From: Candidatus Kuenenia stuttgartensis
GTDB taxonomy: Bacteria > Planctomycetota > UBA1135 > UBA2386
Direction: 5' to 3'
NCBI GenBank assembly: GCA_945861365.1
Contig: CAMAUH010000001.1
Location: forward strand, 1-47,241
Length of the DNA: 47,241 bases
Under the pieces are notes generated by a model that was not told where the DNA came from, searched no databases, and worked only from the letters and a program-made list of their open reading frames with translations. A program made the translations under genes and the position numbers. This document shows, one piece after another, positions 1-41,709 of the stretch (position 1 is its first letter; each line of letters starts with the position of its first letter).

Positions 1-501
1 GAACGACGTCAGCGCACCGACCAACGTGTGCATCGCGACGCCGGCCAGCAGCAGCGTGGCGACCGCGAAGCGGCCGTTCGCGCGGGCGAGCACGAACACG
101 GCGCCGGTCACCAGCGACGCTCCGGCGAGCGAACACAGCGGCACCAGCAGCACGCCGAGCGCCGCCAGCTTCAGCACGATCGCGAGCGCGCCGCCGAACG
201 CCGCGCCGGCGGCCGTGCCGACCAGGTCGGGCGAGGCGAGCGGATTGCGGAACGTCGCCTGCATCACCGCGCCAGCCAGCGCCAAGGCCGCACCGCCGAA
301 CGCCGCGACCAGCAAGCGCGGCAGGCGGATGTCGCCGAGCACGAACGCGTCGACGCGCGGCAACGGCTCGGCACCGCACCAGGTGCCGAGCCATCGCAGC
401 ACCGCGGCGAAGCCCGGCCCTTCCCGCGCGACCGCGAGGAAGAGCACCGCCAGCACCGCCAGCGCGAGCAGCAGCAACCACGGCAACGCGGCGCGCTTCA
501 C
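1..501 (-). CDS. FecCD-family ABC transporter permease (BtuC/FhuB/HmuU-like), N-terminal part; the gene runs off the left edge
   Basis: Not in the ORF track because there is no stop inside the window. My translation of the minus strand from GTG 501-499 reads VKRAALPWLLLLALAVLAVLFL...DIRLPRLLVAAFGGAALALAGAVMQATFRNPLASPDLVGTAAGAAFGGALAIV...LLLAGVAMHTLVGALTSF. The RLPR...LAGxxMQxxFRNPLAsPxxxG block is the hallmark N-terminus of FecCD permeases. GTGA start/stop overlap with the binding-protein gene. Confidence 0.8.
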   Translation of the reverse strand, partial: MKRAALPWLLLLALAVLAVLFLAVAREGPGFAAVLRWLGTWCGAEPLPRVDAFVLGDIRLPRLLVAAFGGAALALAGAVMQATFRNPLASPDLVGTAAGAAFGGALAIVLKLAALGVLLVPLCSLAGASLVTGAVFVLARANGRFAVATLLLAGVAMHTLVGALTSF

Positions 502-1376
502 GGCTTGCCCCATTGCAGCAGCTCTCGCTGCAGGAACTCGGCGGCCTCGACCAGCCGGTGGGACGTCGTGTTGAACAAGGCGCCCGGCGCCCGCACCACC
601 CGCCGCGCTTCGACACACGGCAACATCGGGATCACCGGATGCTGCCGGATCCACGCCGGCAGTTCGGCACCTTCGGCCTCGCTCGCGCTGACGACGAGGG
701 CGTCCGGTTGCCAGCCCAGCAGCGCTTCGACATCCAGCTTGCGGAACGGTCCGACCCCGCGTTCGACGGCCTCGCAGCGGGCGCCGGCGGCGGCCACCAG
801 CGCGGCGAACAACGAGCCCTTGCCGTAGGTGTGCAGGCCGCCATCGAGGTTCATGACCCGCCACGCCGCAACCTCGGGTGCGCGCACCTGCAGCGCCCGC
901 AAGCGCTCCTGCATCACGGCGACCAGCTGCTCAGCAGCGGGTTCGAGGTGGCAGAGCCGCCCGATGTGGCGCAGGTTCGCGGCGATGTCGTCGAAACTGC
1001 CCGGGTTGCCCGTGACGACCACCGGCACATCGGCCGCGGACAGCAGCGCCAGCGTCTCCGGCCGCGTGAACGCGTCGCAGATCACCAGATCCGGCCGCAC
1101 CGCGAGCAGCTGTTCGGGTTCGGCGCCAACGGCCGGCAGGCCCTTCGCTGCGTCGACGACCAGCGAGTAGCGCGGGTCGGCAGCGAGCACGTGCACCCCG
1201 GCGATGCGTTCGCGCGGCGCGATCGCCAGCAACACCTCGGTCGCCAGCACCGAGGCCGCGACGATCCGCTGCGGGGGACTGGTCGGCCGCCAACCAGCTT
1301 CGCGCCACGGCTGCTTCGCATCGCACGCCGTGAACAGGAACGCGGCGGTCAGGGTCAGCGGCAGGAGCGAGGGCAC
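498..1376 (-). CDS. ABC transporter periplasmic substrate-binding lipoprotein, BtuF/FhuD/HmuT (cluster A) type
   Basis: ORF 498..1469. The likely start is GTG 1376, 7 nt after the upstream stop. It gives the lipoprotein signal VPSLLPLTLTAAFLFTAC (lipobox LFTAC). The body (RIVAASVLATEVLLAI, PDLVICDAF, VPVVV, LLGWQPDALVV) fits iron-siderophore/heme/cobalamin binding proteins. A FecCD permease follows. Confidence 0.75.
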   Translation of the reverse strand: MPSLLPLTLTAAFLFTACDAKQPWREAGWRPTSPPQRIVAASVLATEVLLAIAPRERIAGVHVLAADPRYSLVVDAAKGLPAVGAEPEQLLAVRPDLVICDAFTRPETLALLSAADVPVVVTGNPGSFDDIAANLRHIGRLCHLEPAAEQLVAVMQERLRALQVRAPEVAAWRVMNLDGGLHTYGKGSLFAALVAAAGARCEAVERGVGPFRKLDVEALLGWQPDALVVSASEAEGAELPAWIRQHPVIPMLPCVEARRVVRAPGALFNTTSHRLVEAAEFLQRELLQWGKP

Positions 1377-1383
1377 GTCCGCA

Positions 1384-2637
1384 TCATCGGCCCTCGGGTT
1401 TCTGCGGCAACGGGAAGGACGGTCCCTGTTCCGCATCCTTGGCGCCCTTCTGTTCGGACCACGGCGCATCGAGCAGTGCTACCGGACCGATCGTCTCGAC
1501 AACATCGCCCTTGGCACGGCGCACGGTCAGCGTCACGGCATCGCCGCCGAGCTTGCCGTTCACCAGCATCTGCAGGTGTGGCCCATTGCGCACCGCGATG
1601 CCATCGACCGCGGTGATGACGTCGCCGGCGAGCAGGCCGGCCTTCGCCGCAGCACCGGTCTCGTTGGTCTGGCCGAGCCTGGCGCCAGGGCCGAGGAACT
1701 TCGCATCGAGCTTCACGCCGAGCCAGCCGCGCTGCAGCACCTGGCCCTGCCGCATGCGCGCGAGCAACGGCTCGATGTCCGCGATCGTCGCCGCGAAGCC
1801 GATGCCCGAGTCGTACCACTCGACGCCGGCGTTGCGCCCCGACGGCGACAGCGGCACCGCGATGCCGAGCACGCGACCCTGCACGTCGACGACCGGGCCA
1901 CCGTAGTTCGCCGGCGACGTGTAGGCATCAACCTGCAGCGCGCGACCGAACAGCCGCTGCTTCGCGCTGACGATGCCGAGATGCAGCGTCGGTTCGTCCG
2001 CCGCGAACGTGCGTCCGAGCGCCATCGCCCACTGGCCCACCTGCACCTGGTCCGGATGCACGAACTCCGGCACCGGCAGCCCCATCGCGGCGATCTTGAC
2101 CAGCGCGATGCCGCGGCTGGTGTCCTCACCGGCGCGCTCGGCGCGGAACGTGCCGCGGCCGGGCACCGTGACCAGCACCGTCGTCGGATCCAGGTTCATC
2201 GCGAAGCGCGACACGACGATCCACCCGTCGCTGGTCAGCACGACGCCGGTGGTGCGACCGAGCGCCTGCTTGAAGCCCTCGGCGACCAGCGGCTTCTTCT
2301 TCCGTTCGGCTTCCTTGGGGTCCGCCGGCTCCTTCGGGCCGTCGGGATCGCTGTGGTCGGGCTCCGGTTCGGGCGGGCCGTCCGGCTTCGGCTCGACCTT
2401 CGGCTTCGGTGGCTCCTTCGGCGGCGGCGGCACGTCGCCGTCGAAGTCGCCATCGGTGCCGCTGACCCGCCGCGTGCCGCCGAACGTCTCGATCGTCACC
2501 GTGAACGTCGCCGCCTTGGCGAGCGCCTGTTGCACGATCGGCTCCAGCCGCAGGAACTCGTCGGCATCAACGCCGCGCTGCGCCGCCGCCGTCGCCGCCA
2601 GCACACTCGCCGCCAGCATCGCGTGGAACGTGTTCAC
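1384..2637 (-). CDS. HtrA/DegP-like trypsin-fold + PDZ protein with all three catalytic residues replaced (predicted pseudoprotease)
   Basis: ORF 1384..3102. Start taken at GTG 2637 (GTGA overlap with the upstream stop); ATG 2619 is an alternative. Contains a signal peptide, a Pro/Lys/Glu linker (PPPPKEPPKPKVEPKPDGPPEPEPD) and a PDZ domain (GWLGVKLD...AGLLAGDVITAVDG). Triad positions: GWIVVSRFAM (His->Phe), SRGIALVKI (Asp->Gly), ANYGGPVVD (Ser->Tyr). Confidence 0.8.
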   Translation of the reverse strand: MNTFHAMLAASVLAATAAAQRGVDADEFLRLEPIVQQALAKAATFTVTIETFGGTRRVSGTDGDFDGDVPPPPKEPPKPKVEPKPDGPPEPEPDHSDPDGPKEPADPKEAERKKKPLVAEGFKQALGRTTGVVLTSDGWIVVSRFAMNLDPTTVLVTVPGRGTFRAERAGEDTSRGIALVKIAAMGLPVPEFVHPDQVQVGQWAMALGRTFAADEPTLHLGIVSAKQRLFGRALQVDAYTSPANYGGPVVDVQGRVLGIAVPLSPSGRNAGVEWYDSGIGFAATIADIEPLLARMRQGQVLQRGWLGVKLDAKFLGPGARLGQTNETGAAAKAGLLAGDVITAVDGIAVRNGPHLQMLVNGKLGGDAVTLTVRRAKGDVVETIGPVALLDAPWSEQKGAKDAEQGPSFPLPQKPEGR

Positions 2638-3686
2638 TTGGGCTCCTTGCCGAGTTCGACCTCGCCGGTCAGCACCTGCGTGCCACGCTTCCAGGTGACC
2701 TTGACCTTCTGCCCCGGCGCGAACTTGCCGAGGATCTCGCGGTACTCGCGGCAGGTGCGCGTCGAGAAGTCGTCGAGGCGCACGATCATGTCGTCGACGC
2801 GCAGGCCGAGCGTCGCGGCAGGCGAACCGGCGACCACGCGCTCGATGTACGCCGGCGGCGACTGCCGACCCGCCTTGTCGAACAGCACCGCGCCGAACCA
2901 CGCCGGCTCCTTCACCACGGTGACTTCTTCGCGCCGCTTGCCGTGGATGACCTCGTCGAGGTACGGCAGCAGATCGCGCGCGGGGATCGCCGCCGACAGC
3001 ATCGTGTTGGTCTCCTTGCTGTCGAGCAGCCGCATGTTGAGGCCGATCCAGCGACCATCCAGCGTGAACAGCCCGCCGCCGTACTGGCCGGGGTTGTTGC
3101 ACGCATCGGTCAGGATCAGGTCGCCGTCGTACTTGACGTCGCTCATGCGGTAGCGCAACGCGGTGTTGGCGCGGCCGACGACGACGCCGAACGTGGCGCT
3201 GACCTTCTCGGAGAACTCAGCGAGGCGGAAGCAGTTGCCGAGCGACACCACGAACTGCCCGCTGCGGAACGCGCCGGCATCGCCGATCGCTGGCCACAGC
3301 GGGCGCAGTTCGCACTGCACGAGCTTCGGGTCGATCTTCAGCAGCCGGATGCCGAGCGTCTGGTCCGGCGGCAGCAGCTCCGCCGGGTGCACCGAACCGT
3401 CGTAGAGCACGACGCGCGTGCGATCCTTCTGCAGCAGGATCTGGTCGAGCGTCAGCACGTGGCCCTCCTTGCTGACCAGCACGCCGCTGGCGTAGGCGTC
3501 GATCGTCGCCAGGCCCGATGCGCCGTGGATCTTCACGAGGCTCGGCAGCAGCGCGTCGATCGTGCGCTCGACGGCGGTCGAAGGCGCCCGTTCGGCGAAC
3601 GAGTAGGCCTTGCCGAAGTCCTGCGTCCGTGCGGCGAGCGGCAGCGCCAGCAGCGCGGCGACGGACAGTCCATGGAACGCGCGCAT
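2634..3686 (-). CDS. HtrA/DegP-like trypsin-fold + PDZ protein with all three catalytic residues replaced (predicted pseudoprotease)
   Basis: ORF 2634..4190. Start ATG 3686 gives the signal peptide MRAFHGLSVAALLALPLAARTQ (TGATG junction with the upstream stop). PDZ domain: AYIERVVAGSPAATLGLRVDDMIVRLDD. Triad positions: GHVLTLDQIL (His->Gln), TLGIRLLKI (Asp->Gly), NPGQYGGGLF (Ser->Tyr). Confidence 0.8.
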   Translation of the reverse strand: MRAFHGLSVAALLALPLAARTQDFGKAYSFAERAPSTAVERTIDALLPSLVKIHGASGLATIDAYASGVLVSKEGHVLTLDQILLQKDRTRVVLYDGSVHPAELLPPDQTLGIRLLKIDPKLVQCELRPLWPAIGDAGAFRSGQFVVSLGNCFRLAEFSEKVSATFGVVVGRANTALRYRMSDVKYDGDLILTDACNNPGQYGGGLFTLDGRWIGLNMRLLDSKETNTMLSAAIPARDLLPYLDEVIHGKRREEVTVVKEPAWFGAVLFDKAGRQSPPAYIERVVAGSPAATLGLRVDDMIVRLDDFSTRTCREYREILGKFAPGQKVKVTWKRGTQVLTGEVELGKEPK

Positions 3687-5401
3687 CAGCCTTCCCTCCG
3701 GAACCACGCTTCGTCGACGTCGGTGACCTTGCGCGGCGCGCAGGTCCAGCCGGTTTCCAGCTTGCCGTCGACGACGACGCGCACGCGTTCGCCGCGCAAG
3801 TGCCACTCGACCTTCGCCTTGCGCACCGGATCGCGGAACCGGCAACCCGCGGGCGAGCCATCGCGGAAGAACCACGCTTCGCATTCGCCGTCGCCGGGAA
3901 GCTCGAAGCGCAGCGCCGGCGCGCCCTGCACGTGCAGGCCGCCGAGCAGCAGCGCAGGCTCGAGGCGGGCCGGCGCGGCGCTGAGCGACCACAGCAGCGG
4001 GTTGGCGGTGAACTCGCGGCGCAGCCGTTCGGCCTCGTCCGCCGTCAGCTCGCGCACCTTGCCACCCTCGCGCGCGAAGCCGCGGCCTTCGCCTTCGCGC
4101 ACCAGCACCAGTTCGCCGAGATCGAGCCGCAGCCGTTCGCCGTGGGCGATCGCGCCGATGACCGTGCCGTCGGGTGCGGTGCGATGCCACTGCAAGGCGC
4201 CAGGCGGCTCGGTGCTCGCCGGCCAGCGCGCGCGCAGTGCGGCCGTCGCGATGCGACGCTCGGCGCGGCTCGCCAGACGCGCGTCCGTGCCATCGCGGCT
4301 CGAGCCGGTGTCCAACCGCGACAGCTGCAGCGTCACGCGCCGTTCGTCACCGAACTGGCCTTCGCCGCGCAGCGGCTTGTGCCACAGCGTGACCCACGCG
4401 CCAGCTGGCAGCACGCCGACCATCGTCGCCAGCTGGTTCGCCGAGCGCACCTCGACGCCATCGAAGCGCGTGATCTCGTCACCGAGCCCGACGCCGACCA
4501 GCGCCGACACCGAATCCTTGAACAGTTGCTGCACGAACACGCCGCGACGCTGTTCGCCTTCGGCCTTCGAGCCCATGAACCACGCGCTGAGGTCGAGCGT
4601 GCCGTGTTCGGCGTGGCGACCCGCGATCAGGTCGGCGAGGAAGTTGTTGATCTGGTTGCTGGCGATCGCGAAGCCGACGCCGACGTTGACGCGCCCGCGG
4701 TCGCCGATCGAGATGCGGCCGTTGATGCCGACCACCTCGCCCGCCTCGTTGAACAACGGGCCACCGCTGTTGCCGGGGTTCACCGCCGCATCGACCTGGA
4801 TGCAGTCGGGGTAGACCAACATGCGCTGGCCGCCGCCTTCCTGGTACCGGTGCGTGCCCGACACGATGCCGAACGTCACCGTCGGTGTGAAATCGGTCGC
4901 GAGCAGGAACGGGTTGCCCATCGCGAACACGGTCTGGCCGACCAGCAGCTGGTCGCTGTCGCCGAGCTCCCGGAACGGCCACGTCTGGCCTTCGCGCTTC
5001 GGCAGCATGCGCAGCACCGCGAGGTCGCTGCCGGGATCGACGCCGAGCACCACCGCCTCGTACAGCTCACCGTCGGGCAGGCCGATCTTCTTGTTGCGCC
5101 AGTGTTCGGCGCCGCTGGCCTTGTTCTCGCGCCGCCAGACCTCGAGCTCGGCCGCCGGCAGCTCGGGCTCGCTCGGCGTGTAGCCCTCGTCGGGACCGCC
5201 GACGACGTGGAAGTTCGTCAGCACGTAGCCGCGCGGATCGAAGACCACGCCGCTGCCGCCGCCGGGCGCGTCCATCGACATCACCGAGCAGACGGCGGGC
5301 GCGCAGGCAGCGACGACCGCGACGCGCCGGGCCTCGCTCGCCTGCACCGCAGCGAGCGGGTCCTGCATGCCGCACGAAGCGAGCAGAAGGGCGAGCATCA
5401 T
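3686..5401 (-). CDS. S1C serine protease (HtrA/DegP/DegQ family) lipoprotein, intact catalytic triad, PDZ plus unknown C-terminal extension
   Basis: ORF 3686..5464. ATG 5401 gives the lipoprotein signal MMLALLLASCG. The triad is intact: GYVLTNFHVV (His), GSDLAVLRM (Asp), NPGNSGGPLF (Ser). A PDZ-like region (GLGDEITRFDGVEVRSANQL) is followed by roughly 230 aa with no motif I recognise. Confidence 0.88.
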   Translation of the reverse strand: MMLALLLASCGMQDPLAAVQASEARRVAVVAACAPAVCSVMSMDAPGGGSGVVFDPRGYVLTNFHVVGGPDEGYTPSEPELPAAELEVWRRENKASGAEHWRNKKIGLPDGELYEAVVLGVDPGSDLAVLRMLPKREGQTWPFRELGDSDQLLVGQTVFAMGNPFLLATDFTPTVTFGIVSGTHRYQEGGGQRMLVYPDCIQVDAAVNPGNSGGPLFNEAGEVVGINGRISIGDRGRVNVGVGFAIASNQINNFLADLIAGRHAEHGTLDLSAWFMGSKAEGEQRRGVFVQQLFKDSVSALVGVGLGDEITRFDGVEVRSANQLATMVGVLPAGAWVTLWHKPLRGEGQFGDERRVTLQLSRLDTGSSRDGTDARLASRAERRIATAALRARWPASTEPPGALQWHRTAPDGTVIGAIAHGERLRLDLGELVLVREGEGRGFAREGGKVRELTADEAERLRREFTANPLLWSLSAAPARLEPALLLGGLHVQGAPALRFELPGDGECEAWFFRDGSPAGCRFRDPVRKAKVEWHLRGERVRVVVDGKLETGWTCAPRKVTDVDEAWFRREG

Positions 5402-5429: not shown

Positions 5430-6650
5430 TCACTGCTGCAGCACGCGCGCGTCGGCGAACGCACAGTGGTCGCCGAGGTCGTAGTTCTTGCCGAAGTCCG
5501 CTTCGATCGCGAGCGACTTCGCCTTCTTCAGATCGACGCGCACGGCCTGCGCCGCTTCACCGCGCGTCATCGGTGCCGACTCGAACGCGACCGCGCCGTC
5601 GACCAGCACGCGGAACACCGCGTGCGCTTCGGGCCCACCGCGGTCGTCGATGCCGATCATCGCTTCGAAGCGATCGAAGCGGCCGCCGAGGTCGTAGGTC
5701 AGGCGGGTGCGCGGCACCATGCCGATGCCGCGCGAGAACGTGCGGCCGGCGAGCTGGAAGCCACTGCCGCCGAGCGAGCGACCGTTGGTCCAAGGCCACG
5801 TGCGATCGAACGCCGGCGTCTGCTGCGCTTGCGGCTGCAGGTCCTGCAGCCACGCGAGGCGATCGCTGGCGACCGTCACGCGCAGCAGCTTGGCGGCCTG
5901 CACGGTGAGCTCGACACCTTCGTCGAGGCGCAGGCGCGCGCTGCCGCCGTCGAGGCCGAGCAGCTTGCCTTCGAACTGTTCGCCGGTGGTCAGCTCGAGC
6001 CGGGTGCGTGGCTTCTGCTGGCGATCGGGCGCCACGCCGGTGTTGTCGCCGAACACGATCGCGGCGACGCCGCCGAGTTCGAACTCGTACGCATCGCCGC
6101 GCAGCAGGAAGTCGACCGTGTCGGTGCCGACCGAAGTCACCGCCACCGCCGAACGCTGCGCCTTGCCGTCCTTGACGACGTACAGCAGGTCCTCGTTGGC
6201 GGCCGGCTTCTTCAGGTCTGCGGCGAACAGGGTCGGCTCGGGGCGCCCGTCGCCGCCTTGCCGCAGCGCGCGCAGCGTCGCGATCGGCAACTCGAACGTG
6301 ATGCCACTCGGCAGTTCGAGCGCGACGCGGGCCGGTTTGCCGGCCGCGACGGCGACGCCGGCGATGCGCGTGCAGGCGAACTCGCCGCCCGAACGCAACC
6401 ACACCCGATGCGGTGCCGTCACCAACACGGCGGCCGCACCCGCCGGCTCGAACCCGGCGATCTCGGCCAGCGCGAGCGCGGTCTCGCCTTGCGAACCACC
6501 GACCTTCGCGTTGCCTTCGGCATCGACCGTCAGCGTGCCCGCGAGGGAGCGGCCATCGATCGTGCTGGTGATGCCAGCGAGGCCTTGGGCAGGAGCGCCG
6601 ACCGCGAGGGCCAGCGCGAGTACCAGCGAGCGACTACGTGCGCGGCTCAC
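5430..6650 (-). CDS. Secreted protein with repeated beta-rich modules and a C-terminal NPCBM-type domain
   Basis: GTG start at 6650 (GTGA overlap with the upstream stop). Signal peptide MSRARSRSLVLALALAVGAPAQG. C-terminus: FSRGIGMVPRTRLTYDLGGRFDRFEAMIGIDD...VFRVLVDG...LAIEADFGKNYDLGDHCAFADARV, which is typical of NPCBM/NEW2 modules. No glycoside hydrolase catalytic domain is attached. Confidence 0.7.
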   Translation of the reverse strand: MSRARSRSLVLALALAVGAPAQGLAGITSTIDGRSLAGTLTVDAEGNAKVGGSQGETALALAEIAGFEPAGAAAVLVTAPHRVWLRSGGEFACTRIAGVAVAAGKPARVALELPSGITFELPIATLRALRQGGDGRPEPTLFAADLKKPAANEDLLYVVKDGKAQRSAVAVTSVGTDTVDFLLRGDAYEFELGGVAAIVFGDNTGVAPDRQQKPRTRLELTTGEQFEGKLLGLDGGSARLRLDEGVELTVQAAKLLRVTVASDRLAWLQDLQPQAQQTPAFDRTWPWTNGRSLGGSGFQLAGRTFSRGIGMVPRTRLTYDLGGRFDRFEAMIGIDDRGGPEAHAVFRVLVDGAVAFESAPMTRGEAAQAVRVDLKKAKSLAIEADFGKNYDLGDHCAFADARVLQQ

Positions 6651-7699
6651 TTCTCGCCCGCCGCCTTCGTCAGCTTCTTGTAGTAGCCCTCGAGCATCTT
6701 CTGGTACTGCGGCGGCAGGCCCTTCTGCACCTGCGCTTCGATCTTCTCGCGCTCGGCGTCCTTCATCTGGCCCCAGCGATCGACCAGCGAAGGCCGCTTG
6801 TTCAGGTTGCCGACGGTGCCTTCGCCTTCCGGCAGCGCGCTGTTGCTGGCCGGGTTGCTCGATGGGCCGTTGCCCGAGGGCGGCCCGGACGACTGCGCTT
6901 CCTTCTTCTGGTACTCCTCGATCAGCATGTCGAGTTCGGTCAGGTACTTCTCCTGATCGACCTGCACCGGCTTGTCGGTCTTCTGGCGGCGCAGGTCGCG
7001 CCGGGTCTTCTGCATGCCGTTGGCGAGGTCGTGCAGCTTGCTCTCCTGCTGCATCGCGATCTCGCCCTGCCGCTGGCTCGCCGCACTGCGGAAGCGCTCA
7101 CTGGCGTCGGGGAAGTGCGCGAGGAAGCCCTTGAACCACTCGGTGGCGAGTTCCGGCTCCGGGATGTCCGCCAGCGCCTGCGCGTAGAAGAACGCGGCTT
7201 CGCCGTCGAGCGGCGACAGGTTGATGTTCTTGCCGAAGTACTCGGCCAGCGTGCGCGCGGCGAGGTCAGGGTCGTCGCTGTCGAGGAACAGCCGCGCCAG
7301 GTGGTAGCGCACGTGCGCTTGCAGCAGCGACGACTCGGTCGCGGCGAGCACCTTCGTCAGTTCGATGGCGGCGCCCGGATCGCTCGCTTCGTGCAGCTTC
7401 ACCGCCGCGTCGAAGGCCGGGTTCAGCGAACGCACGAGGTCGTCGGCGGCGCGCGCCATGCCGAGTTCGGTCGCCTTGGTGCCGAACGCCTGCAGCTGCG
7501 CCGGCGTGGCGCCGAGCTGCTGCGCCGCGGCTTCGAACTTCGCGCGATCGAACGGCAGGAACTCCACGCCGCGCGATTGGCTCGCGGCGGGAGCTGCCGG
7601 TGCGGGTGCAGGCTCTTGCGGCTTCGGGGCCGCGGCCTGCGCGCCGAGCTGCAGTGCGCCGATCGCACCGAGCAGCAGCGCGAGGGTGGCGTGCTTCAT
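6647..7699 (-). CDS. Secreted helical/TPR-like protein with a K/E/Q-rich C-terminal half; function unknown
   Basis: ORF 6647..7948. ATG 7699 (ATGA overlap) gives the signal peptide MKHATLALLLGAIGALQLGAQA. TPR-like helices (AHVRYHLARLFLDSDDPDLAARTLAEYF; AAFFYAQALADIPEPELATEWFKGFLAHFP). The tail ends GLPPQYQKMLEGYYKKL. Confidence 0.6.
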   Translation of the reverse strand: MKHATLALLLGAIGALQLGAQAAAPKPQEPAPAPAAPAASQSRGVEFLPFDRAKFEAAAQQLGATPAQLQAFGTKATELGMARAADDLVRSLNPAFDAAVKLHEASDPGAAIELTKVLAATESSLLQAHVRYHLARLFLDSDDPDLAARTLAEYFGKNINLSPLDGEAAFFYAQALADIPEPELATEWFKGFLAHFPDASERFRSAASQRQGEIAMQQESKLHDLANGMQKTRRDLRRQKTDKPVQVDQEKYLTELDMLIEEYQKKEAQSSGPPSGNGPSSNPASNSALPEGEGTVGNLNKRPSLVDRWGQMKDAEREKIEAQVQKGLPPQYQKMLEGYYKKLTKAAGEK

Positions 7700-9684
7700 C
7701 GGTCGCCCCCGGTCTCGTTCTCCTTGCCCAGCTTGTCGGCGAGCCGCCGCATCAGGTCCTGCACGCGGCCCTGCTTCTTCGACAGCACCTCGGTCTCGGT
7801 CTTGGCGACCTCCGGGGTCTTCGCCTCGGGCGCGAGGCCGTCGAACGCCTTCGTCGACTTGTTCACGCGCTCCTGCAGGTAGCGCAGCATCTTCAGTTCG
7901 GCCGAGACGGGGACCAGCGGCGGCTGGCCATTGCACTGGCCGTTGCACTGCCCGCCTTCCTTCTGCTCGATCGTCTTGCGCAGCGCGTTGATCAGCATCG
8001 CCAGCAGGTCCTCGACCTCACGCTGGGCCAGCTGCGTGCCGGTGTCGGTGTCGCGCGCGGCGAGGCGCTTGGCGACCGCGCCGAGGTCGTCGCGCAGTTG
8101 CTCGACCATCGGCGGGAACACGGCCGTCGTGGCGTCCTCTTCGAGCAGCTTCAGCGCGTCGCCGGCTTCCGCTTCGAGTTCGCCTTCGCCGGTCGACAGC
8201 TCGCCGACCTTCTGCACCATCGCCGCGGGCATCTCACCGCTCGCGGTCAGCACGTTGTTGCGCGTGCCGTGCAGCGTCTTGGTCTGCGCCGACAGTTCGC
8301 GCTGGCGGGCCAGCATCGCGGTGAAGCGCTCTTCGAGCGCGCGCAGCACCTCGTCCTGCAGTTGCTGACGCAGCTGGGCCAGCGCGTCCTCGAGCTCCTT
8401 CTTGGCGGCTTCGAGGTCGTCCTTGGCGTCCTGCTGCTTCTGCTTGGCCTTCTTGTACTCCTTCAGCTGGCCGGCGGCGGCCTTCTGCTTCGGCACCGCC
8501 TGCTGCACCTTCTTCTTGCCGGGCGTCGCCTTCTGCTCGCCGTCTTCACCCTTCTCCTCGGACTTCTCCATGTCCTTGGCGAGCGTGTCGGTGGCGTGCT
8601 GGGTGTCCTCCTGCTTCTTCGCCTGCTGCTCCATCGGCAGCTTCAGCAGCTCGCGCTTGGCCTCCTCGGCCATCTGCTCGAGCTCCTGCACGGTCTTGGC
8701 GAGGTTCTCGATCGCCTGCTCCTGGTCCTTCAGCGACGACTCCGGCTTCTTGTCGCCGAGCTGCTTCTGCGCCTGGCCCATCGACTGCGAAGCCTTCGCG
8801 GCGCTGCCGCTGCACGCGCACTTGCCTTCCTTGGGCTCGCCGGCCTTCGGCTCACCGGCCTTGGGTTCGCCAGCCTTCGGTTCGCCAGCCTTCGGTTCTC
8901 CCGCCTTGGGTTCACCAGCCTTGGGCTGCCCGGCCTTGGCGGCCTTCGCCGCCGCCTTCGCTTCGGCCTTCGCCGCGTCGTTCTTCAGCTCGGCGTCCTT
9001 GCGCTCGGTCGCTTCGAGGTCCTTCGCCAGCTTCTCGGTGTCCTGCTGCAGCTTGCTCTCCTTGTCGGCGAGCGGCTGCGTCGCTTCGGCGGCGGCCTGC
9101 ACACCGAGCTGGTTGGTCTGCTCCTTCACCTGCTTCTGCTCGGCGAGCAGCGCCTGGGCGAGCTGCTTCTTCGCTTCGAGGTCGGCGATGTGCTTCTCGA
9201 GTTCCTCGGTGCGGGCCGACGCGTCCTTCTCGTCACCCTGCTCCTTGGCCAGCTCGTCGACGCGATCCTTGAACGCGCTCAGCTTGGCGATCTCCTCGAG
9301 CAGCTTGCGCAGGTCGGAGTTCCGGTTCTGCAGCAGATCGAGCAGCTTGCCGAGGTCGGTGCGCAGTTCGTTCATCACGACCAGCGACTCGTCCCAGCGC
9401 TCCTGCTTCAGCATGTCGCCCGCCTTGTCGAGGCGCGTCAGCAGCTTCTTCTCCTGCACGTACGTGAGGCCCGCGGCGATCAGCTTGCTCTCCTCGGGTT
9501 CGCTCTTCTGCAGCACGCCCATCAGCTTCTGCATGCGCTCGGTCAGTTCCTTGAACTTGGCGTAGGCGAGCTCCTGCTTGGCGGCCGCCGTCAGCTGCGG
9601 CTCCTGTGCACGCAGCGACGACAGCTGCGGAGTCGCCACTGCGAACAGCAGGGCGAAGGTCATTGCGATGAGTCGTGCGATCAT
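7696..9684 (-). CDS. Signal-anchored long coiled-coil protein with a KAGEP tandem repeat; function unknown
   Basis: ORF 7696..9804. ATG 9684 has GAGGA a few nt upstream. N-terminus MIARLIAMTFALLFAVATP. The rest is K/E/Q/A/L-rich with a heptad-like character. Contains KAGQP plus six KAGEP units and the Cys motifs KCACSGS and GQCNGQCNG. Confidence 0.65.
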   Translation of the reverse strand: MIARLIAMTFALLFAVATPQLSSLRAQEPQLTAAAKQELAYAKFKELTERMQKLMGVLQKSEPEESKLIAAGLTYVQEKKLLTRLDKAGDMLKQERWDESLVVMNELRTDLGKLLDLLQNRNSDLRKLLEEIAKLSAFKDRVDELAKEQGDEKDASARTEELEKHIADLEAKKQLAQALLAEQKQVKEQTNQLGVQAAAEATQPLADKESKLQQDTEKLAKDLEATERKDAELKNDAAKAEAKAAAKAAKAGQPKAGEPKAGEPKAGEPKAGEPKAGEPKAGEPKEGKCACSGSAAKASQSMGQAQKQLGDKKPESSLKDQEQAIENLAKTVQELEQMAEEAKRELLKLPMEQQAKKQEDTQHATDTLAKDMEKSEEKGEDGEQKATPGKKKVQQAVPKQKAAAGQLKEYKKAKQKQQDAKDDLEAAKKELEDALAQLRQQLQDEVLRALEERFTAMLARQRELSAQTKTLHGTRNNVLTASGEMPAAMVQKVGELSTGEGELEAEAGDALKLLEEDATTAVFPPMVEQLRDDLGAVAKRLAARDTDTGTQLAQREVEDLLAMLINALRKTIEQKEGGQCNGQCNGQPPLVPVSAELKMLRYLQERVNKSTKAFDGLAPEAKTPEVAKTETEVLSKKQGRVQDLMRRLADKLGKENETGGDR
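8830..8934 (-). repeat. Seven tandem 15-bp in-frame units encoding KAGQP + KAGEP x6
   Basis: Plus-strand units: cttgggctcgccggc / cttcggctcaccggc / cttgggttcgccagc / cttcggttcgccagc / cttcggttctcccgc / cttgggttcaccagc / cttgggctgcccggc. Units differ mostly at synonymous positions. Confidence 0.9.
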
Positions 9685-9742
9685 GGGTTCCTCGCTGGGT
9701 ACGACCCGCATTGCGGGCCATCGGTCGGTTCGGGCTCTGCTG

Positions 9743-11959
9743 TCACTTCTTCTTCGGTTGGAAGAGGTTCTGCTCACCCTGCTGCTTGCGGCGTTCGACG
9801 TCATCGATCGCCTGCTTCTCTAGGTTAATCACGGCCTTCAGTTCTTGGATGAGGGCAGCCAGGTTCTCGGCCTGCTCCATCTCCTTCAGCACCGCCTGTA
9901 GCCGGCGCTCGATGTCGCGGTAACCCTCCAGGGCGGCGGTCCTTGTCGCTTCGTCGGCGGTGCCGGTGAAGGTGTCGACGAGGCGCGCGGTGGCCGGGAA
10001 AGCATCCTTGGCAACGGCCGCCAACGGCTGCGGGATCAGGCTTTCCATCTGCCGGACCTTCGGCGGCTCGATGAGGCGGTTGTTCTCGTACTCCCACAGG
10101 ATGCGCTGGTAGGACTCGCCGACGAACGCGGCGCGGCGACCGAGCGCCTGCTGCCCGCGCGCCAACGCCTTCAGCTTCGCCTCGGCGAGCTTGCGCTTGT
10201 CGCCGGCCTGCGCGGGATTGACCATCTCCTGCAGCTCGAGCTGCATGCGGTGCTCGTCATCGAGCACGCGCTGCAGTTCCTGCCGCTGCTCGACCTGGCG
10301 CCGCCGCAACTCCTCGACCATGCGTTCGCGCGTGATGACGCGGAACGCCATCGTCTCGCCCTGGCCCTCGTGCGGCTCGCCGGGGCCGAAGTTGTCCTTC
10401 GCCTGCAGACGCAGCGAGAACAGCATGCCGGGGCGGATCGGGTTGCTCGGATCGTCTTCCTTGTCGACCTTGTTCCACTGCCGCAGGTCGACCGCCGCGG
10501 TGGTCTCGTAGCGCAGCGCACTCTTCGCCAGCGCCTCGCCGTAGACGACCTCGGCCGCGCTGAACGCAGGCTCGGGCAACGGCGCCTGGCCCTTCTCCGG
10601 CGGCTTGTCCTCGAACGCGCGCCACACCGCCGACACCTCGCGCAGGCCGAAGTCGTCCTTCACGCGCAGGTCGCCGGGGATGCGCGCGTGCGCGGTGATC
10701 GACGAGCCGATGCCGCGCAGGCGGAAGTCGATCGACGGCGGCTTGTCGTCGCCGACGCGCAGAACGAGCTTCGGCGGCGTGCCGGCACCGAGCGCATCGC
10801 GATCGATGACGTCGACGACCAGCAGCCCCGACCGCGTCGGGGCGAACGTGCCGGCGAACGAACGGCCATCGGCGGCGCAGGCCAGCGCGGTCTTCTGGTC
10901 GCTGCCGAACAGTGCGAATGCCTGCTGCAGCGCCTTCTGGCTCTTGCCGGCGATCGCCAGCGATGCCCCCTTCGGCAGGCGCAGTTCGCCTTCGGTCGCG
11001 GGCACGACGAACGGCTCGCGCTCCATGTAGTCGGGGAACGTCACCGTCAGCGCGAGATCGTCGATGCGCGGCCGTTCGACGATCTTCACCGCGACGTGCA
11101 GCGGCAGCGCGTCGCCGCCGGCCATCGCGAGCTGCATGTCGGCGAGCACCGCGTCGATCGTCCACGTGAACTCGCGATCGCCGGTGCGGCTCATCGGCTC
11201 GGTGCCCGTCTCGCCACCCTGGAACGCGTAGTCGACGAACACCTGGTCCGGCACCGGACCGTCGGCGACCACGCGCACGGTCAGCGCGTCACCCTGCGGC
11301 AGCGCGATCGTGCCGAGCGTGCCTTCGCCGAGCTGCAGCGTCGTGTAGCGCGGCCAATCGACGTTCGCCAAGGCGAGGTTGCGCAGCGCCCACAGGCCGA
11401 GCGAGCCGCGATCGATCGCGAACCAACCGGCGAAGAACAGCACCGCCGCGAACAGTCCGGCGCCGAAGCGGCGCACGCGCGCGGCATCGATCGCCCCCGA
11501 AAACGGGATCGACGCCATGCGGCCGCGCACGTCGTCGACGAGCGCCTGCTTCAGCGCCAGCGACTCGACCGAACGGCTGTCGCTGCGCAGGTCGCGCGCG
11601 AACTGCAGCGAGCTGATCAGCGCCTGCTTGATGCCGGGCGCGCTGCGTTCGACCGCGAGCGCCATCTCCTCGTCGTCGAGCGTCTGCCGCAGCGGCGCCA
11701 CCAACCGGGCCCGCAACACGCGCAGCACGACGAACACGAACGTCGCCAGCAGCACGGCGCGGAAGATCCACTCGAGGCGCAGCGCCCGGTCGGTCAGGAA
11801 GCTCGGCAGCGCGAACGCGACCAGCAGCATCGCCAGCGCACCGAGTGATTCGATCCAGATGCCACGGCGCACACGCTGGCGGAGTGACGCCAGTTCGGCC
11901 TGCGCCGGCGGGTTTGCCACGAAGAACGCCGAGGCGGCGGAATCGACCGTCGAGTTCAT
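9743..11959 (-). CDS. Large membrane protein (N-terminal TM helices plus ~500-aa extracytoplasmic region), DUF4175-like architecture
   Basis: ORF 9743..12040. Start ATG 11959 (ATGA overlap). TM helices: IWIESLGALAMLLVAFALPSFL, IFRAVLLATFVFVVLRVL, LFAAVLFFAGWFAI. The family name is recalled from the usual BatA/VWA gene neighbourhoods and was not searched. Confidence 0.55.
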   Translation of the reverse strand: MNSTVDSAASAFFVANPPAQAELASLRQRVRRGIWIESLGALAMLLVAFALPSFLTDRALRLEWIFRAVLLATFVFVVLRVLRARLVAPLRQTLDDEEMALAVERSAPGIKQALISSLQFARDLRSDSRSVESLALKQALVDDVRGRMASIPFSGAIDAARVRRFGAGLFAAVLFFAGWFAIDRGSLGLWALRNLALANVDWPRYTTLQLGEGTLGTIALPQGDALTVRVVADGPVPDQVFVDYAFQGGETGTEPMSRTGDREFTWTIDAVLADMQLAMAGGDALPLHVAVKIVERPRIDDLALTVTFPDYMEREPFVVPATEGELRLPKGASLAIAGKSQKALQQAFALFGSDQKTALACAADGRSFAGTFAPTRSGLLVVDVIDRDALGAGTPPKLVLRVGDDKPPSIDFRLRGIGSSITAHARIPGDLRVKDDFGLREVSAVWRAFEDKPPEKGQAPLPEPAFSAAEVVYGEALAKSALRYETTAAVDLRQWNKVDKEDDPSNPIRPGMLFSLRLQAKDNFGPGEPHEGQGETMAFRVITRERMVEELRRRQVEQRQELQRVLDDEHRMQLELQEMVNPAQAGDKRKLAEAKLKALARGQQALGRRAAFVGESYQRILWEYENNRLIEPPKVRQMESLIPQPLAAVAKDAFPATARLVDTFTGTADEATRTAALEGYRDIERRLQAVLKEMEQAENLAALIQELKAVINLEKQAIDDVERRKQQGEQNLFQPKKK

Positions 11960-14457: not shown

Positions 14458-14470
14458 GGTCGTCTCGCCG

Positions 14471-16715: not shown

Positions 16716-17753
16716 TCAGCGCTGGTAGATCGGGGCGTAGGAGTAGGGCAGCAGCAGGATCGTCAGCGCGATCGCGGTGCCGTACACGGTGCCGACGCCG
16801 TCGCCTTCCCAGCTGCCGTCCTTCTTCTGCTGGCGCAGCAGCCACGCCGCCTTCTTGTCGAGGTAGCCGGTCCAGTCGGCGCCGCCGCGCTGGTAGAGCG
16901 CCTGGCTCCAGTAGAGGTGCGTGTAGAAGTGGTGGCCGGTGTTGTCGACGCTGACCTGGATCTGCTTCTTGCAGTACTGCACGGCCTTCTCGACGAACGG
17001 CTGGTCGTCGTACATGCCGGCGTTGTAGAGCACCGCGACGCCGGCCGCGGTGATGGCCGGGCGCCCTTCGCCACCGGAGTTGAGGCTGTAGCGGATGCTG
17101 CCGTCGCCGTTCTGGCACTTCTTGATGTAGTCGACGGCGCGATCGATCGTCTTCTTGTCGACGGCGATGCCGGCCATGCGGCACGCGCGCAGCGCCTGGA
17201 TCTGCGTCACGGTGACGCTGCCTTCGTCGCTGTTCGAATCGGGCGTGTAGATCCAACCGCCGGCCGACGACTGCGCCGAACTGATCAGGCCGACCGCCTT
17301 GTCGAGCACGCGCTTGAGCCGCTCCTGCTTCTTGACGTCCTCCTCCATGCCGAACACCGAGGCGAGGAACAGCGTCGCGAAGCCGTGGCCATACATGCCG
17401 CGGCCTTCCTCGGCGGGCACCGAGATGACGCCGGAGTTGGGATCGGCGTGCTTCAGCAGGAAGTCGACCGAGTCGCGCACCTGCTGCCAGTGCTTGCCGC
17501 GCGTCGGCGTCGAGCCGCTGGCGATGAACGCCATGCCGGCGAGCCCGGTCATCGCCGCCGGATAGCTGCCGTAGCCGCCGGAGTTGCGCCAGCTGCCGTC
17601 GTTGGCCTGATTGCGCGCGAGCCAGTCGAGGCCGCGCTGCACCGCTTCGTGGATCTCCTTGGTGACGCCGGGCGGGTAGACGACATCCTGCGCGGGCGCG
17701 AGCCCCCCGATCGCGAGTGCCAGCAGCCAGGGAGCGAGTCGCGTGCGATGCAT
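16716..17753 (-). CDS. Secreted prenyltransferase/squalene-cyclase-like QW-repeat (alpha/alpha toroid) protein, paralog B
   Basis: ORF 16716..17915. ATG 17753 gives the signal peptide MHRTRLAPWLLALAIGGLAPAQD. QW-type repeats: NQANDGSWRN, SAQSSAGGWIY, CQNGDGSIRY, QQKKDGSWEG. Confidence 0.75.
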   Translation of the reverse strand: MHRTRLAPWLLALAIGGLAPAQDVVYPPGVTKEIHEAVQRGLDWLARNQANDGSWRNSGGYGSYPAAMTGLAGMAFIASGSTPTRGKHWQQVRDSVDFLLKHADPNSGVISVPAEEGRGMYGHGFATLFLASVFGMEEDVKKQERLKRVLDKAVGLISSAQSSAGGWIYTPDSNSDEGSVTVTQIQALRACRMAGIAVDKKTIDRAVDYIKKCQNGDGSIRYSLNSGGEGRPAITAAGVAVLYNAGMYDDQPFVEKAVQYCKKQIQVSVDNTGHHFYTHLYWSQALYQRGGADWTGYLDKKAAWLLRQQKKDGSWEGDGVGTVYGTAIALTILLLPYSYAPIYQR

Positions 17754-17755
17754 GA

Positions 17756-26026: not shown

Positions 26027-26029
26027 GGC

Positions 26030-27085: not shown

Positions 27086-27145
27086 GCCTCGCCTTGTAGC
27101 CGCATGCGGCGCGCAGCGACAAGGGGCGGCGCACGGTGGCAGCGG

Positions 27146-27715
27146 TCAGAACGAGACCTTGACGACCTTGCGCTCTTCCGCGGACTCGACCTCGAAGAAC
27201 TCGAGCTGCTTGAAGTTGCCGAAGCCGGCGATCAGCGAACCCGGGAACTGCTCGATGCCGTTGTTCAGGCGCATCACCGCGTCGTTGTAGGCCTGGCGAG
27301 CGAAGCCGACGCGGTTCTCGGTCGAGGTCAGCTCCTCCTGCAGCTTCAGCATGTTCTGGTTGGCCTTCAGGTCCGGATAGCTCTCCGAGACCGCCATCAG
27401 GCCGCGCAGCGACGTGCTCAGGATGCCCTCGGCCTTGGCGAGTTCCCCGATGTTGCCGGCCTTGCTGAGGTCGACGCAGGTCTGCCGCGCGCGGATCACG
27501 GCTTCGAGCGTCTCGCGCTCGTGCTTCATGAAGCCCTTGGCGACCTCGACGAGGTTGGGGATCAGCTCGTAGCGGCGCTTGAGCTGCACATCGATCTGGC
27601 TCCACGCGTTCTTCGCCTCGTTGCGCCGGCTGACGAGACCGTTGTAGGTGCCGATCGCCCATAGCACGAACAGCAGGACGAAGGCGATCGGGATGATGAA
27701 GACGAGGGATTCCAT
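27146..27715 (-). CDS. lemA: LemA family protein
   Basis: Inside ORF 27146..28348. ATG 27715 gives MESLVFIIPIAFVLLFVLWAIGTYNGLVSRRNEAKNAWSQIDVQLKRRYELIPNLVE...YPDLKANQNMLKLQEELTSTENRVGFARQAYNDAV, the canonical LemA sequence. Confidence 0.9.
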   Translation of the reverse strand: MESLVFIIPIAFVLLFVLWAIGTYNGLVSRRNEAKNAWSQIDVQLKRRYELIPNLVEVAKGFMKHERETLEAVIRARQTCVDLSKAGNIGELAKAEGILSTSLRGLMAVSESYPDLKANQNMLKLQEELTSTENRVGFARQAYNDAVMRLNNGIEQFPGSLIAGFGNFKQLEFFEVESAEERKVVKVSF

Positions 27716-27752
27716 AAGGCTCTCTGCAGCGACAAACGACGCCGACCGCGAA

Positions 27753-36109: not shown

Positions 36110-36115
36110 CCTGGC

Positions 36116-36856: not shown

Positions 36857-36857
36857 A

Positions 36858-37457: not shown

Positions 37458-37507
37458 GCCAATCGGTCATCCGGCCGGCGGGGCTCGGTGGCACATACTA
37501 ACCCTGC

Positions 37508-39143: not shown

Positions 39144-39157
39144 CGCGCGGGCGCCAG

Positions 39158-39203: not shown

Positions 39204-39213
39204 TCGGCTCTAA

Positions 39214-40362: not shown

Positions 40363-40372
40363 TGGGAGTGCT

Positions 40373-41678: not shown

Positions 41679-41709
41679 CCTGCAAGAGCAACCCGAACCA
41701 CCTCGGCAC

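What the first reader, a model, noticed from the sequence alone, without database searches (positions are those of the whole stretch)
1384..5401. One intact HtrA protease followed by two paralogs with the whole catalytic triad replaced (His->Gln/Phe, Asp->Gly, Ser->Tyr)
**Seen in the sequence**
- Three consecutive, translationally coupled trypsin-fold + PDZ genes.
- The first (3686..5401) keeps TNFHVV / SDLAVL / GNSGGP.
- The next two read TLDQIL / LGIRLL / GQYGGG and VSRFAM / RGIALV / ANYGGP at the same aligned positions.
- Both dead copies share Asp->Gly and Ser->Tyr while keeping the surrounding fold motifs and the PDZ domains.

**Inference**
- Inactivation probably preceded the duplication, and the dead fold is under selection.
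- A conserved Tyr at the nucleophile position is not what random decay would give.
- HtrA proteases act as trimers to 24-mers, so the dead paralogs could form hetero-oligomers with the active one or act as substrate-holding or adaptor subunits.
Basis: partly seen in the sequence, partly recalled or inferred. Interest (0 to 1): 0.72.

Follow-up and report, generated by a model that had tools for sequence, protein, structure and literature searches.

The report
Active HtrA protease with two dead partners
Three overlapping genes in an uncultured planctomycete encode one working HtrA-type protease and two conserved paralogs that have lost the catalytic triad; relatives often fuse these genes into one protein, so they most likely form a single mixed protease complex.

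Summary
On the minus strand lie A (3686..5401, His65/Asp126/Ser212 intact), B (2634..3686, Gln82/Gly112/Tyr202) and C (1384..2637, Phe145/Gly176/Tyr245). All three are HtrA-like and carry N-terminal export signals. Their stop and start codons overlap (TGATG, GTGA).

The trio occurs in this order in 66 species-level Planctomycetota genomes.
- A always keeps His/Asp/Ser.
- C is almost invariantly Phe/Gly/Tyr.
- B is always dead, but its former nucleophile position varies (Tyr, Phe, Gln or Gly).
- dN/dS is 0.05-0.33 for all three genes. B and C are as conserved as A, so they are not decaying.

New here: of 150 distant B-family representatives, none has a full triad. 52 are A-B fusions with the A half intact, 2 are B-C fusions and 1 is an A-B-C fusion. 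The trio also ends a conserved BatA/vWA...NPCBM operon.

Best reading: a hetero-oligomeric periplasmic protease with one catalytic subunit and two non-catalytic ones. The subunit interaction is inferred, not shown.

B and C are very divergent, and B lost its triad residues piecemeal.

Closest analogues are MamE/MamO and DEG7/Nma111. I rate this a new variant of a known kind.

The parts
3686..5401 (-). Gene A: HtrA-type serine protease, 571 aa. It has an N-terminal hydrophobic export signal, an intact triad (His65, Asp126, Ser212), a ~35-residue insertion after the catalytic His, a weak PDZ-like region (~280-340) and a ~230-aa C-terminal region of unknown family.
   Evidence: Pfam Trypsin_2 6e-32. 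Best solved-structure match is DegP, 3e-33. His/Asp/Ser are kept in 59/59 orthologues that cover the region. The C-terminal region has no Pfam match.
2634..3686 (-). Gene B: catalytically dead HtrA paralog (protease fold plus one PDZ), 350 aa, with an export signal. Triad positions are Gln82, Gly112 and Tyr202.
   Evidence: Pfam Trypsin_2 4.5e-16 plus PDZ. Aligned to DegQ. In 64 orthologues: His position Q52/L11/A1; Asp position G60/R2/N1/K1; Ser position Y42/F10/G8/Q4. dN/dS 0.05-0.33.
1384..2637 (-). Gene C: catalytically dead HtrA paralog (protease fold plus one PDZ), 417 aa, with an export signal and a ~70-residue Pro/Glu/Lys-rich disordered loop (res ~56-126). Triad positions are Phe145, Gly176 and Tyr245. 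The PDZ carboxylate-binding loop RGWLGV is retained.
   Evidence: Pfam Trypsin_2 7e-16 plus PDZ. Aligned to DegP-like structures. In 63 orthologues: F63, G61/Q2, Y63. AlphaFold2 model: pLDDT 74, low in the loop. Foldseek top hits are Deg1, DegP, MucD and DegS.
3684..3688 (-). A stop / B start overlap, TGATG (1 nt shared), with GGAGG a few bases upstream.
   Evidence: Read directly. In relatives the overlap is 4 nt in 37 and 1 nt in 17 of 56 loci.
2634..2637 (-). B stop / C start overlap, GTGA (4 nt shared), with AAGGAG upstream.
   Evidence: Read directly. A 4-nt overlap is present in 60 of 60 loci.
5430..6650 (-). Gene directly upstream of A: 406-aa protein with a C-terminal NPCBM/NEW2 domain. 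It belongs to the same conserved operon.
   Evidence: Pfam NPCBM 2.7e-28. It lies directly upstream of A in 52 of 55 loci that have enough flank.
6647..16708 (-). Rest of the conserved operon upstream. In transcription order: BatA_N + vWA + GATase1-like protein (14471..16708); ~833-aa protein with weak vWA/DUF7408 matches (11956..14457); ~738-aa unknown (9743..11959); ~662-aa coiled-coil protein (7696..9684; relatives match DUF4175); 350-aa TPR protein (6647..7699).
   Evidence: Pfam. Gene calls on a contig with identical proteins. The same gene order occurs in relatives, including those with A-B fusions.

Best explanation
A, B and C are the subunits of one hetero-oligomeric, periplasmic HtrA-type protease. 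A supplies the only active site. B and C are pseudoproteases that keep the HtrA protease fold and a PDZ domain. They would serve as non-catalytic subunits for assembly, substrate or activator-peptide binding, and regulation of A.

The three are made in fixed proportion by translational coupling. They form the last module of a conserved Planctomycetota envelope operon (BatA/vWA ... TPR, NPCBM), whose products are the likely clients or partners.

What is shown:
- fold and family of all three proteins;
- loss of the triad in B and C;
- purifying selection on all three;
- conserved order and coupling;
- existence of gene fusions.

What is inferred:
- physical association of the subunits;
- stoichiometry (a 1:1:1 pseudo-trimer, or stacked trimers);
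- what the complex cleaves.
For: (1) All three are HtrA homologues across protease and PDZ regions. All three start with hydrophobic export signals followed by conserved mature N-termini.
(2) A keeps His/Asp/Ser in 59/59 orthologues. B and C never have a full triad in 64 and 63 orthologues or in the 120 top clusters of each family.
(3) Selection is equal on all three: dN/dS 0.05-0.33, and B is more conserved than A in 80% of 1485 genome pairs.
(4) The order A-B-C is conserved in 66 species genomes. Stop/start overlaps occur in 54 of 56 A-B junctions and 60 of 60 B-C junctions.
(5) Fusions: of 150 representatives of the wider B family, 52 are A-B fusions, and every A half whose triad positions aligned is His/Asp/Ser. 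Two more are B-C fusions and one is an A-B-C fusion. Fusion genes sit at the same operon position, followed by C with a 4-nt overlap.
(6) An AlphaFold2 model of a natural A-B fusion has pLDDT 85.5 and pTM 0.82 over 875 residues. This points to a defined arrangement of the two halves.
(7) Precedents: the inactive MamO promotes MamE-dependent proteolysis (PMC4794232), and the degenerated protease domain of DEG7 mediates trimerisation (PMC3194040).
Against: - No direct evidence of interaction exists.
- Gene fusion and operon linkage show functional coupling, not necessarily a stable complex.
- One genome (L056) has B-C without an adjacent A.
- In L051, ~6 kb separates B from C. Its relatives L049 and L050 show no C in the flank held.
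- Two apparent A-B fusions inside the close clade (L048, L064) could be assembly frameshifts.
- No client or substrate is known, and all carriers are uncultured MAGs.
Confidence: 0.6

Rival explanations
1. B and C are stand-alone periplasmic chaperones or holdases. They resemble protease-dead DegP, which keeps chaperone activity (recalled from general knowledge). They would be co-expressed with A but would not assemble with it.
For: B and C retain the fold, a PDZ domain and export signals. C keeps a canonical PDZ binding loop, RGWLGV. Co-transcription alone does not require a complex.
Against: The recurrent covalent fusions A-B, B-C and A-B-C and the strict translational coupling are hard to explain for independently acting proteins. 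The former active-site loops of B and C are among their most conserved segments, which suggests a specific remodelled site rather than a generic holdase surface.
Confidence: 0.15
2. B and/or C have been repurposed as ligand- or metal-binding proteins that use the remodelled former active-site cleft, as MamO binds transition metals. Any effect on A would be secondary.
For: In C the residues around all three former triad positions are nearly invariant: S143-R144-F145, R175-G176 and N244-Y245. That places two arginines and a tyrosine in the cleft. B has invariant His76 and His100, and mostly His at 201 next to position 202. MamO is the precedent (PMC4794232).
Against: - No ligand is indicated.
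- The B position-202 residue varies (Y/F/Q/G), and the wider B family has many different residues at the triad positions.
- NCBIfam MamO scores are 20-27 bits against a cut-off of 800.
- This reading is compatible with, rather than opposed to, a complex with A.
Confidence: 0.15
3. B and C are still enzymes, using a non-canonical nucleophile or base.
For: Tyr245 in C is invariant, and the GG of the oxyanion-hole loop is kept in both proteins.
Against: All three triad positions are replaced. There is no His or other base at the His position (Phe in C; Gln or Leu in B). The former nucleophile position in B tolerates Phe and Gly. No B-like domain among 150 representatives has a full triad.
Confidence: 0.05
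4. B and C are decaying duplicates (pseudogenes in the making).
For: None beyond the loss of the triad.
Against: The reading frames are intact in 60+ species. dN/dS is 0.05-0.33, equal to A. 25-28% of columns are invariant. The families extend to 30% identity and into fusions.
Confidence: 0.01

Closest known systems
MamE / MamO of magnetotactic bacteria (PMC4794232)
   Same: An active HtrA protease is paired in one gene cluster with an HtrA-fold pseudoprotease that has a degenerate triad. The inactive partner promotes proteolysis by the active one. Such active/inactive pairing arose repeatedly and is retained by selection.
   Different: - MamO carries a TauE transporter domain and a di-histidine metal site, and it belongs to the magnetosome island.
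- Here there are two distinct pseudoproteases, each with a PDZ domain and neither with a transporter domain. They are translationally coupled to the active gene and sit in a BatA/vWA/NPCBM operon of Planctomycetota.
- NCBIfam MamO and MamE scores are far below their cut-offs.
DEG7 / Nma111 (Ynm3) of plants and fungi (PMC3194040)
   Same: One polypeptide carries an active HtrA module followed by a degenerated protease module with PDZ domains. The degenerated domain mediates oligomerisation. The A-B fusion proteins found here have this architecture.
   Different: - In that study DEG7 orthologues were found only in fungi, plants and some algae, and DEG7 arose by internal duplication of one gene.
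- Here the modules are mostly separate genes, and a third, dead subunit (C) is present.
- The nine fusion and B-family representatives scanned gave no Pfam match beyond trypsin, generic PDZ-type (including one weak PDZ_Tricorn match), HEAT and two weak peptidase models.
- Foldseek top hits were bacterial DegP/DegQ-type chains.
Deg5-Deg8 hetero-oligomer of the thylakoid lumen; ClpP/ClpR rings and inactive proteasome beta subunits (recalled from general knowledge)
   Same: Protease complexes built from paralogous subunits, some of them catalytically inactive and retained for assembly or regulation.
   Different: - Deg5 and Deg8 are both regarded as proteases.
- ClpR and the proteasome beta subunits belong to unrelated folds.
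- None of these comparisons was tested here.
Canonical bacterial HtrA proteases (DegP, DegQ, DegS)
   Same: Same fold and domain order (N-terminal strand, LA-type loop, protease domain, PDZ) and periplasmic location. A is an ordinary member apart from its C-terminal extension.
   Different: The canonical enzymes form homo-oligomers of identical active subunits. B and C lack the triad, and no homologous hetero-complex has been described for them.

Membership tests
HtrA / MEROPS S1C peptidases | Trypsin-fold protease domain homologous to DegP/DegQ/DegS | tested here: met
   A, B and C all match Pfam Trypsin_2 and solved HtrA structures (E 3e-33, 7e-22 and 1e-26). Foldseek on the models gives TM 0.7-0.8 relative to DegP, DegQ, MucD and DegS chains.
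HtrA / MEROPS S1C peptidases | At least one C-terminal PDZ domain | tested here: met
   B and C match PDZ_2, PDZ_6 and PDZ above their cut-offs. For A the evidence is weaker: there is no Pfam PDZ hit, but residues ~280-340 align to DegP PDZ1.
HtrA / MEROPS S1C peptidases | Catalytic triad His-Asp-Ser | tested here: not met
   Met for A (H65/D126/S212; 59/59 orthologues). Not met for B (Q/G/Y) or C (F/G/Y). B and C are therefore non-peptidase homologues of S1C, not peptidases.
MamO-type pseudoprotease | Membership of the MamO family (sequence model) | tested here: not met
   NCBIfam MamO (NF040961) scores 26.9 bits for B and 20 bits for C, against a cut-off of 800.
MamO-type pseudoprotease | C-terminal TauE transporter domain | tested here: not met
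   Pfam finds no domain in B or C beyond trypsin and PDZ.
MamO-type pseudoprotease | Magnetosome-island context | tested here: not met
   The surrounding genes are a BatA/vWA ... TPR, NPCBM operon, not magnetosome genes.
MamO-type pseudoprotease | Inactive partner promotes proteolysis by the active HtrA | not testable with these tools
   Needs biochemistry or genetics.
DEG7 / Nma111 family | Single chain with an active and then a degenerated protease domain | tested here: met
   Not met for the window itself, where A and B are separate genes. Met for 52 of 150 B-family representatives, which are A-B fusions.
DEG7 / Nma111 family | Orthology to the eukaryotic DEG7 proteins | tested here: inconclusive
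   The nine representatives scanned show only trypsin, generic PDZ-type, HEAT and two weak peptidase Pfam matches. Foldseek top hits are DegP-type chains. No direct comparison with DEG7 or Nma111 sequences was run.
Bat (aerotolerance-type) operon | BatA N-terminal domain protein with a vWA domain, accompanied by a TPR protein in one operon | tested here: met
   BatA_N 9e-17 plus weaker vWA matches (VWA_2 2e-4, below Pfam's cut-off) at 14471..16708. TPR_16 match at E 2.5e-5, below Pfam's cut-off, at 6647..7699. Relatives have BatA at the same position. MoxR and DUF58 genes, typical of classical Bat operons, were not found in the window ORFs that were scanned.

The most novel reading that the evidence does not exclude
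A, B and C assemble 1:1:1 into a pseudo-threefold HtrA 'trimer' with a single active site, an asymmetric version of the homotrimer that underlies all known HtrA proteases.
- The remodelled clefts of B and C (Arg/Arg/Tyr in C) and their PDZ domains would hold substrate or sense activating peptides for A.
- This machine would be the dedicated processing or quality-control protease of the BatA/vWA/NPCBM envelope complex of Planctomycetota.
- The repeated A-B, B-C and A-B-C fusions would be this trimer frozen into one chain.
Probability: 0.3. Interest if true: 0.72.

Novelty: new variant of a known kind. Interest (0 to 1): 0.56.

Why it matters
- HtrA proteases are textbook homo-oligomers. An obligate three-paralog HtrA machine with one catalytic and two dead subunits would extend the pseudoenzyme principle to bacterial envelope quality control. 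That principle is already known from MamO, DEG7, ClpR and the proteasome beta subunits. This module is conserved in at least 66 species-level Planctomycetota genomes, with related fusion forms in other lineages of the phylum.
- It offers a natural system for asking what non-catalytic protease-fold subunits do: assembly, substrate delivery or allosteric gating.
- It gives a handle on the function of the large, uncharacterised BatA/vWA/NPCBM operon that it terminates.
- It is also an annotation warning. Databases name B and C 'serine protease Do' or 'S1C family serine protease', although they cannot be serine proteases.

Tried and rejected
- **A as a lipoprotein.** The window sequence LLLASC looks like a lipobox, but only 7 of 59 orthologues have one. 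Rejected; A has an ordinary export signal.
- **B and C as recent duplicates of one dead ancestor.** Not supported.
- **MamO membership.** Rejected on model scores.
- **DEG7/Nma111 identity of the fusions.** No support, but not tested directly.
- **Function of A's C-terminal ~230 aa.** No Pfam match. It is beta-rich in the fusion model.
- **Why L056 lacks an adjacent A.** The upstream ORFs have no Pfam match, and tblastn finds no A in the 21-kb locus.
- **Exact look-up of the BatA-like gene product.** It failed, probably because my start codon differs from the recorded one.
- **Literature searches.** Searches for planctomycete HtrA pseudoproteases or HtrA genes in Bat operons found nothing relevant.
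- **Structure-based residue mapping and the A:B interface.** Neither was possible, because the tools return scores but no coordinates.
- **Neighbour-joining tree.** It uses only three E. coli outgroups and saturated distances, so I treat it as weak evidence.

Full report
**1. What is in the window**

The region is 70% G+C and holds three consecutive minus-strand genes.
- A = 3686..5401 (571 aa).
- B = 2634..3686 (350 aa, ATG start).
- C = 1384..2637 (417 aa, GTG start).

These boundaries agree with independent gene calls on a contig carrying the same proteins. The junctions read ggcTGATGcgc and aaGTGAaca. A's stop therefore shares 1 nt with B's start, and B's stop shares 4 nt with C's start. 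Each junction has a Shine-Dalgarno-like GGAGG or AAGGAG just upstream.

All three proteins match Pfam Trypsin_2, and B and C also match PDZ models. Pfam finds no PDZ in A. Residues ~280-340 of A align to DegP PDZ1, and a further ~230 C-terminal residues match nothing. All three begin with a hydrophobic export signal followed by a conserved mature N-terminus, so all three should be periplasmic.

**2. The triad columns**

I checked them with phmmer alignments to solved HtrA structures and a six-way alignment with E. coli DegP, DegQ and DegS taken from MG1655.

| Column | DegP | A | B | C |
|---|---|---|---|---|
| His | TNNHVV | TNFHVV | TLDQIL | VSRFAM |
| Asp | SDIALI | SDLAVL | LGIRLL | RGIALV |
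| Ser | GNSGGA | GNSGGP | GQYGGG | ANYGGP |

AlphaFold2 models support the fold assignment. The model of C has pLDDT 74, low only in a 70-residue Pro/Glu/Lys-rich loop. The model of a natural A-B fusion has pLDDT 85.5. Both give DegP, DegQ, MucD, Deg1 and DegS as top Foldseek hits. The tools return no residue-level structural alignment, so the mapping of the triad rests on sequence alignment. That alignment is unambiguous, because the flanking motifs are conserved.

**3. Conservation and selection**

Both dead families are large.
- Among the top 120 clusters plus the query, B has Gln at the His position in 120/121 and Gly at the Asp position in 108/121. At the Ser position it has Tyr 88, Phe 22 and Gln 11.
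- C has Phe in 120/121, Gly in 121/121 and Tyr in 121/121.

A scan of one genome per species returned 66 loci. Nearly all are titled Planctomycetota (or Planctomycetia, Brocadiaceae, Singulisphaera) MAGs, a few only 'bacterium', and one a Luminiphilus MAG (L028). One is a CL500-15 freshwater lineage.
- Wherever the contig allows, the order is A-B-C.
- A is His/Asp/Ser in 59/59.
- B is Q52/L11/A1, then G60/R2/N1/K1, then Y42/F10/G8/Q4.
- C is F63, then G61/Q2, then Y63.

In the 14 closest genome pairs, NG86 dN/dS is 0.07-0.24 for A, 0.05-0.33 for B and 0.10-0.24 for C. Over 1485 genome pairs the mean identity is A 0.61, B 0.65 and C 0.61, and B is more conserved than A in 80% of pairs. Columns at least 95% invariant make up 28%, 28% and 25% of A, B and C. 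The remodelled former active-site loops are among the best-conserved segments. The dead copies are therefore under purifying selection as strong as that on the active enzyme.

**4. Linkage**

- Stop/start overlaps are conserved. A-B overlaps by 4 nt in 37 loci and by 1 nt in 17, out of 56. B-C overlaps by 4 nt in 60 of 60.
- The gene directly upstream of A encodes an NPCBM-domain protein in 52 of 55 loci.
- Further upstream lies a fixed series:
  - a BatA_N + vWA + GATase1-like protein;
  - a ~830-aa protein with weak vWA/DUF7408 matches;
  - a ~740-aa unknown protein;
  - a ~650-aa coiled-coil protein (DUF4175 in one relative);
  - a ~340-aa TPR protein.
- The trio is thus the terminal module of a conserved operon of about nine genes.

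**5. Fusions**

An exhaustive profile-free search with B against 1.84 billion cluster representatives found 119 with E <= 1e-30. I mapped the top 150 with A, B and C as queries.
- No B-like domain has a complete triad.
- 52 are A-B fusions of ~700-1500 aa. Every A half whose triad positions could be aligned is His/Asp/Ser.
- 2 are B-C fusions.
- 1 (P0261, 1071 aa) is A-B-C in a single chain.
- Every representative whose cluster carries an organism name in its source is from Planctomycetota, including Planctomycetaceae and Phycisphaerae.

Five fusion genes examined in context sit at exactly the operon position of A+B. They lie after the NPCBM gene and before a C gene that overlaps them by 4 nt. 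Where the flank reaches far enough (four of the five), BatA lies upstream.

The fusion model has pTM 0.82 over 875 residues, which suggests a defined mutual arrangement of the two halves. I could not inspect the interface.

This is classical 'Rosetta-stone' evidence that A, B and C act as one unit.

**6. Evolution of the dead sites**

B and C are not detectably similar to each other by phmmer or BLASTP. Each family HMM scores E. coli DegP/DegQ (101-152 bits) well above members of the other two families (means 41-70 bits). A neighbour-joining tree of protease domains recovers B+C in 62 of 100 bootstraps. That is weak, and both branches are long, so long-branch attraction is possible.

More telling, different B lineages still hold different triad residues.
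- The fused B halves in L071, L078 and L079 read H-G-Q or H-G-H.
- About sixteen representatives keep the Asp (for example S-D-A).
- Three keep the Ser.

The simplest reading is that B's triad eroded piecemeal after B had become a distinct partner lineage. The Gly and Tyr shared with C in this clade are then not inherited from a common dead ancestor. C is fixed at F-(G/K/N/Q)-Y throughout.

**7. Mechanism**

I commit to a hetero-oligomeric HtrA-type protease with confidence about 0.6. A is the sole catalytic subunit. B and C are non-catalytic protease-fold + PDZ subunits for assembly, substrate or activator binding, and gating.

C keeps a canonical PDZ carboxylate-binding loop (RGWLGV, against DegP RGELGI). 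The corresponding stretch of A is degenerate (HGTLDL). This hints at a division of labour, but it is an inference.

The conserved Arg144/Arg175/Tyr245 cluster in C's former cleft suggests a retained binding site. Stoichiometry and clients are unknown.

Rivals considered:
- independent chaperones;
- MamO-like ligand or metal binders;
- cryptic enzymes;
- decay, which the selection data refute.

**8. Comparison with known systems**

The closest systems are the following.
- **MamE/MamO.** The inactive MamO promotes MamE-dependent proteolysis, and active/inactive pairing evolved three times (PMC4794232).
- **DEG7/Nma111.** An active and a degenerated protease domain are fused in one chain, and the degenerated domain drives trimerisation. 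In that study it was found only in fungi, plants and some algae (PMC3194040).

B and C are not MamO family members: they score 20-27 bits against a cut-off of 800, have no TauE domain and lie in a different context. The fusions show no DEG7-specific signature.

Four literature searches found no description of this planctomycete module. Public annotations call B and C 'serine protease Do' or 'S1C family serine protease'.

**9. Verdict**

- It is a new variant of a known kind: an active HtrA protease paired with pseudoprotease partners.
- It is distinguished by two different dead subunits, strict translational coupling, frequent fusion, spread across several Planctomycetota lineages (among the homologues that carry a taxon name), and attachment to a BatA-type envelope operon.
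- Interest is moderate to high for protease and pseudoenzyme specialists. The biochemical claim remains untested.

**Exceptions to record**
- L056 has B-C without an adjacent A.
- In L051 C lies ~6 kb downstream of B. Its relatives L049 and L050 show no C in the flank held.
- L048 and L064 have A and B in one open frame, which could be recent fusions or assembly errors.

Noticed in passing
window 6647..16708 (minus strand): A conserved operon of large, mostly unannotated envelope proteins precedes the protease trio: BatA_N+vWA+GATase1-like, ~833 aa with weak vWA/DUF7408, ~738 aa, ~662-aa coiled coil, TPR and NPCBM. No MoxR or DUF58 genes were found in the ORFs scanned. Its function is unknown.
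   Followed up: partly
window about 8830..8950 (minus strand, inside the 7696..9684 gene): The coiled-coil protein contains a run of about seven tandem pentapeptide repeats: KAGQP, then KAGEP five times, then KAGEPKEG. They are visible in the translation.
   Followed up: no
window 498..1436 (minus strand): A Peripla_BP_2 substrate-binding protein gene follows C. In relatives it is followed by FecCD permease and ABC ATPase genes. Its called start overlaps the 3' end of C by about 53 nt, so the start may be mis-called. The transporter is adjacent in many relatives (PBP hit in 42 of 66 loci) but is displaced by other genes in some.
   Followed up: partly
window 24242..28348 (minus strand): An M48 metallopeptidase gene (24242..26026) and a LemA-family gene (27146..28348) lie near each other, with an unannotated ORF between them.
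   Followed up: no
window 16716..21570 (minus strand): Two proteins match prenyltransferase / squalene-cyclase-like alpha/alpha-toroid models (16716..17915 and 17756..20782). An alternative overlapping frame (18781..21570) matches a PQQ-type beta-propeller. Which frames are real was not resolved.
   Followed up: no
window ~36000..47241: G+C drops from ~0.67-0.72 to ~0.62-0.65 in the last ~11 kb. That stretch includes a ParB gene (38208..39143), a radical-SAM/HemN-like gene and a sigma-70 gene.
   Followed up: no
L056 (CAYQMF010000012.1), 7000..12200: This is the only locus with enough upstream flank where B and C are present but no A-like gene lies upstream. The ORFs in its place have no Pfam match.
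   Followed up: partly
L049, L050, L051: In one sub-clade, L051 has about 6 kb of other DNA between B and C. The related loci L049 and L050 show no C within the flank held. The otherwise universal 4-nt B/C overlap is broken here.
   Followed up: no
window 2634..3686 (protein B), residues 76, 100, 201: B has invariant His76 and His100. In most relatives it also has His at position 201, directly before the former nucleophile position (motif PGHYGGG). A possible metal or ligand site was not examined.
   Followed up: no
P0264 (1511 aa representative): One A-B fusion carries an additional C-terminal array of HEAT repeats.
   Followed up: no
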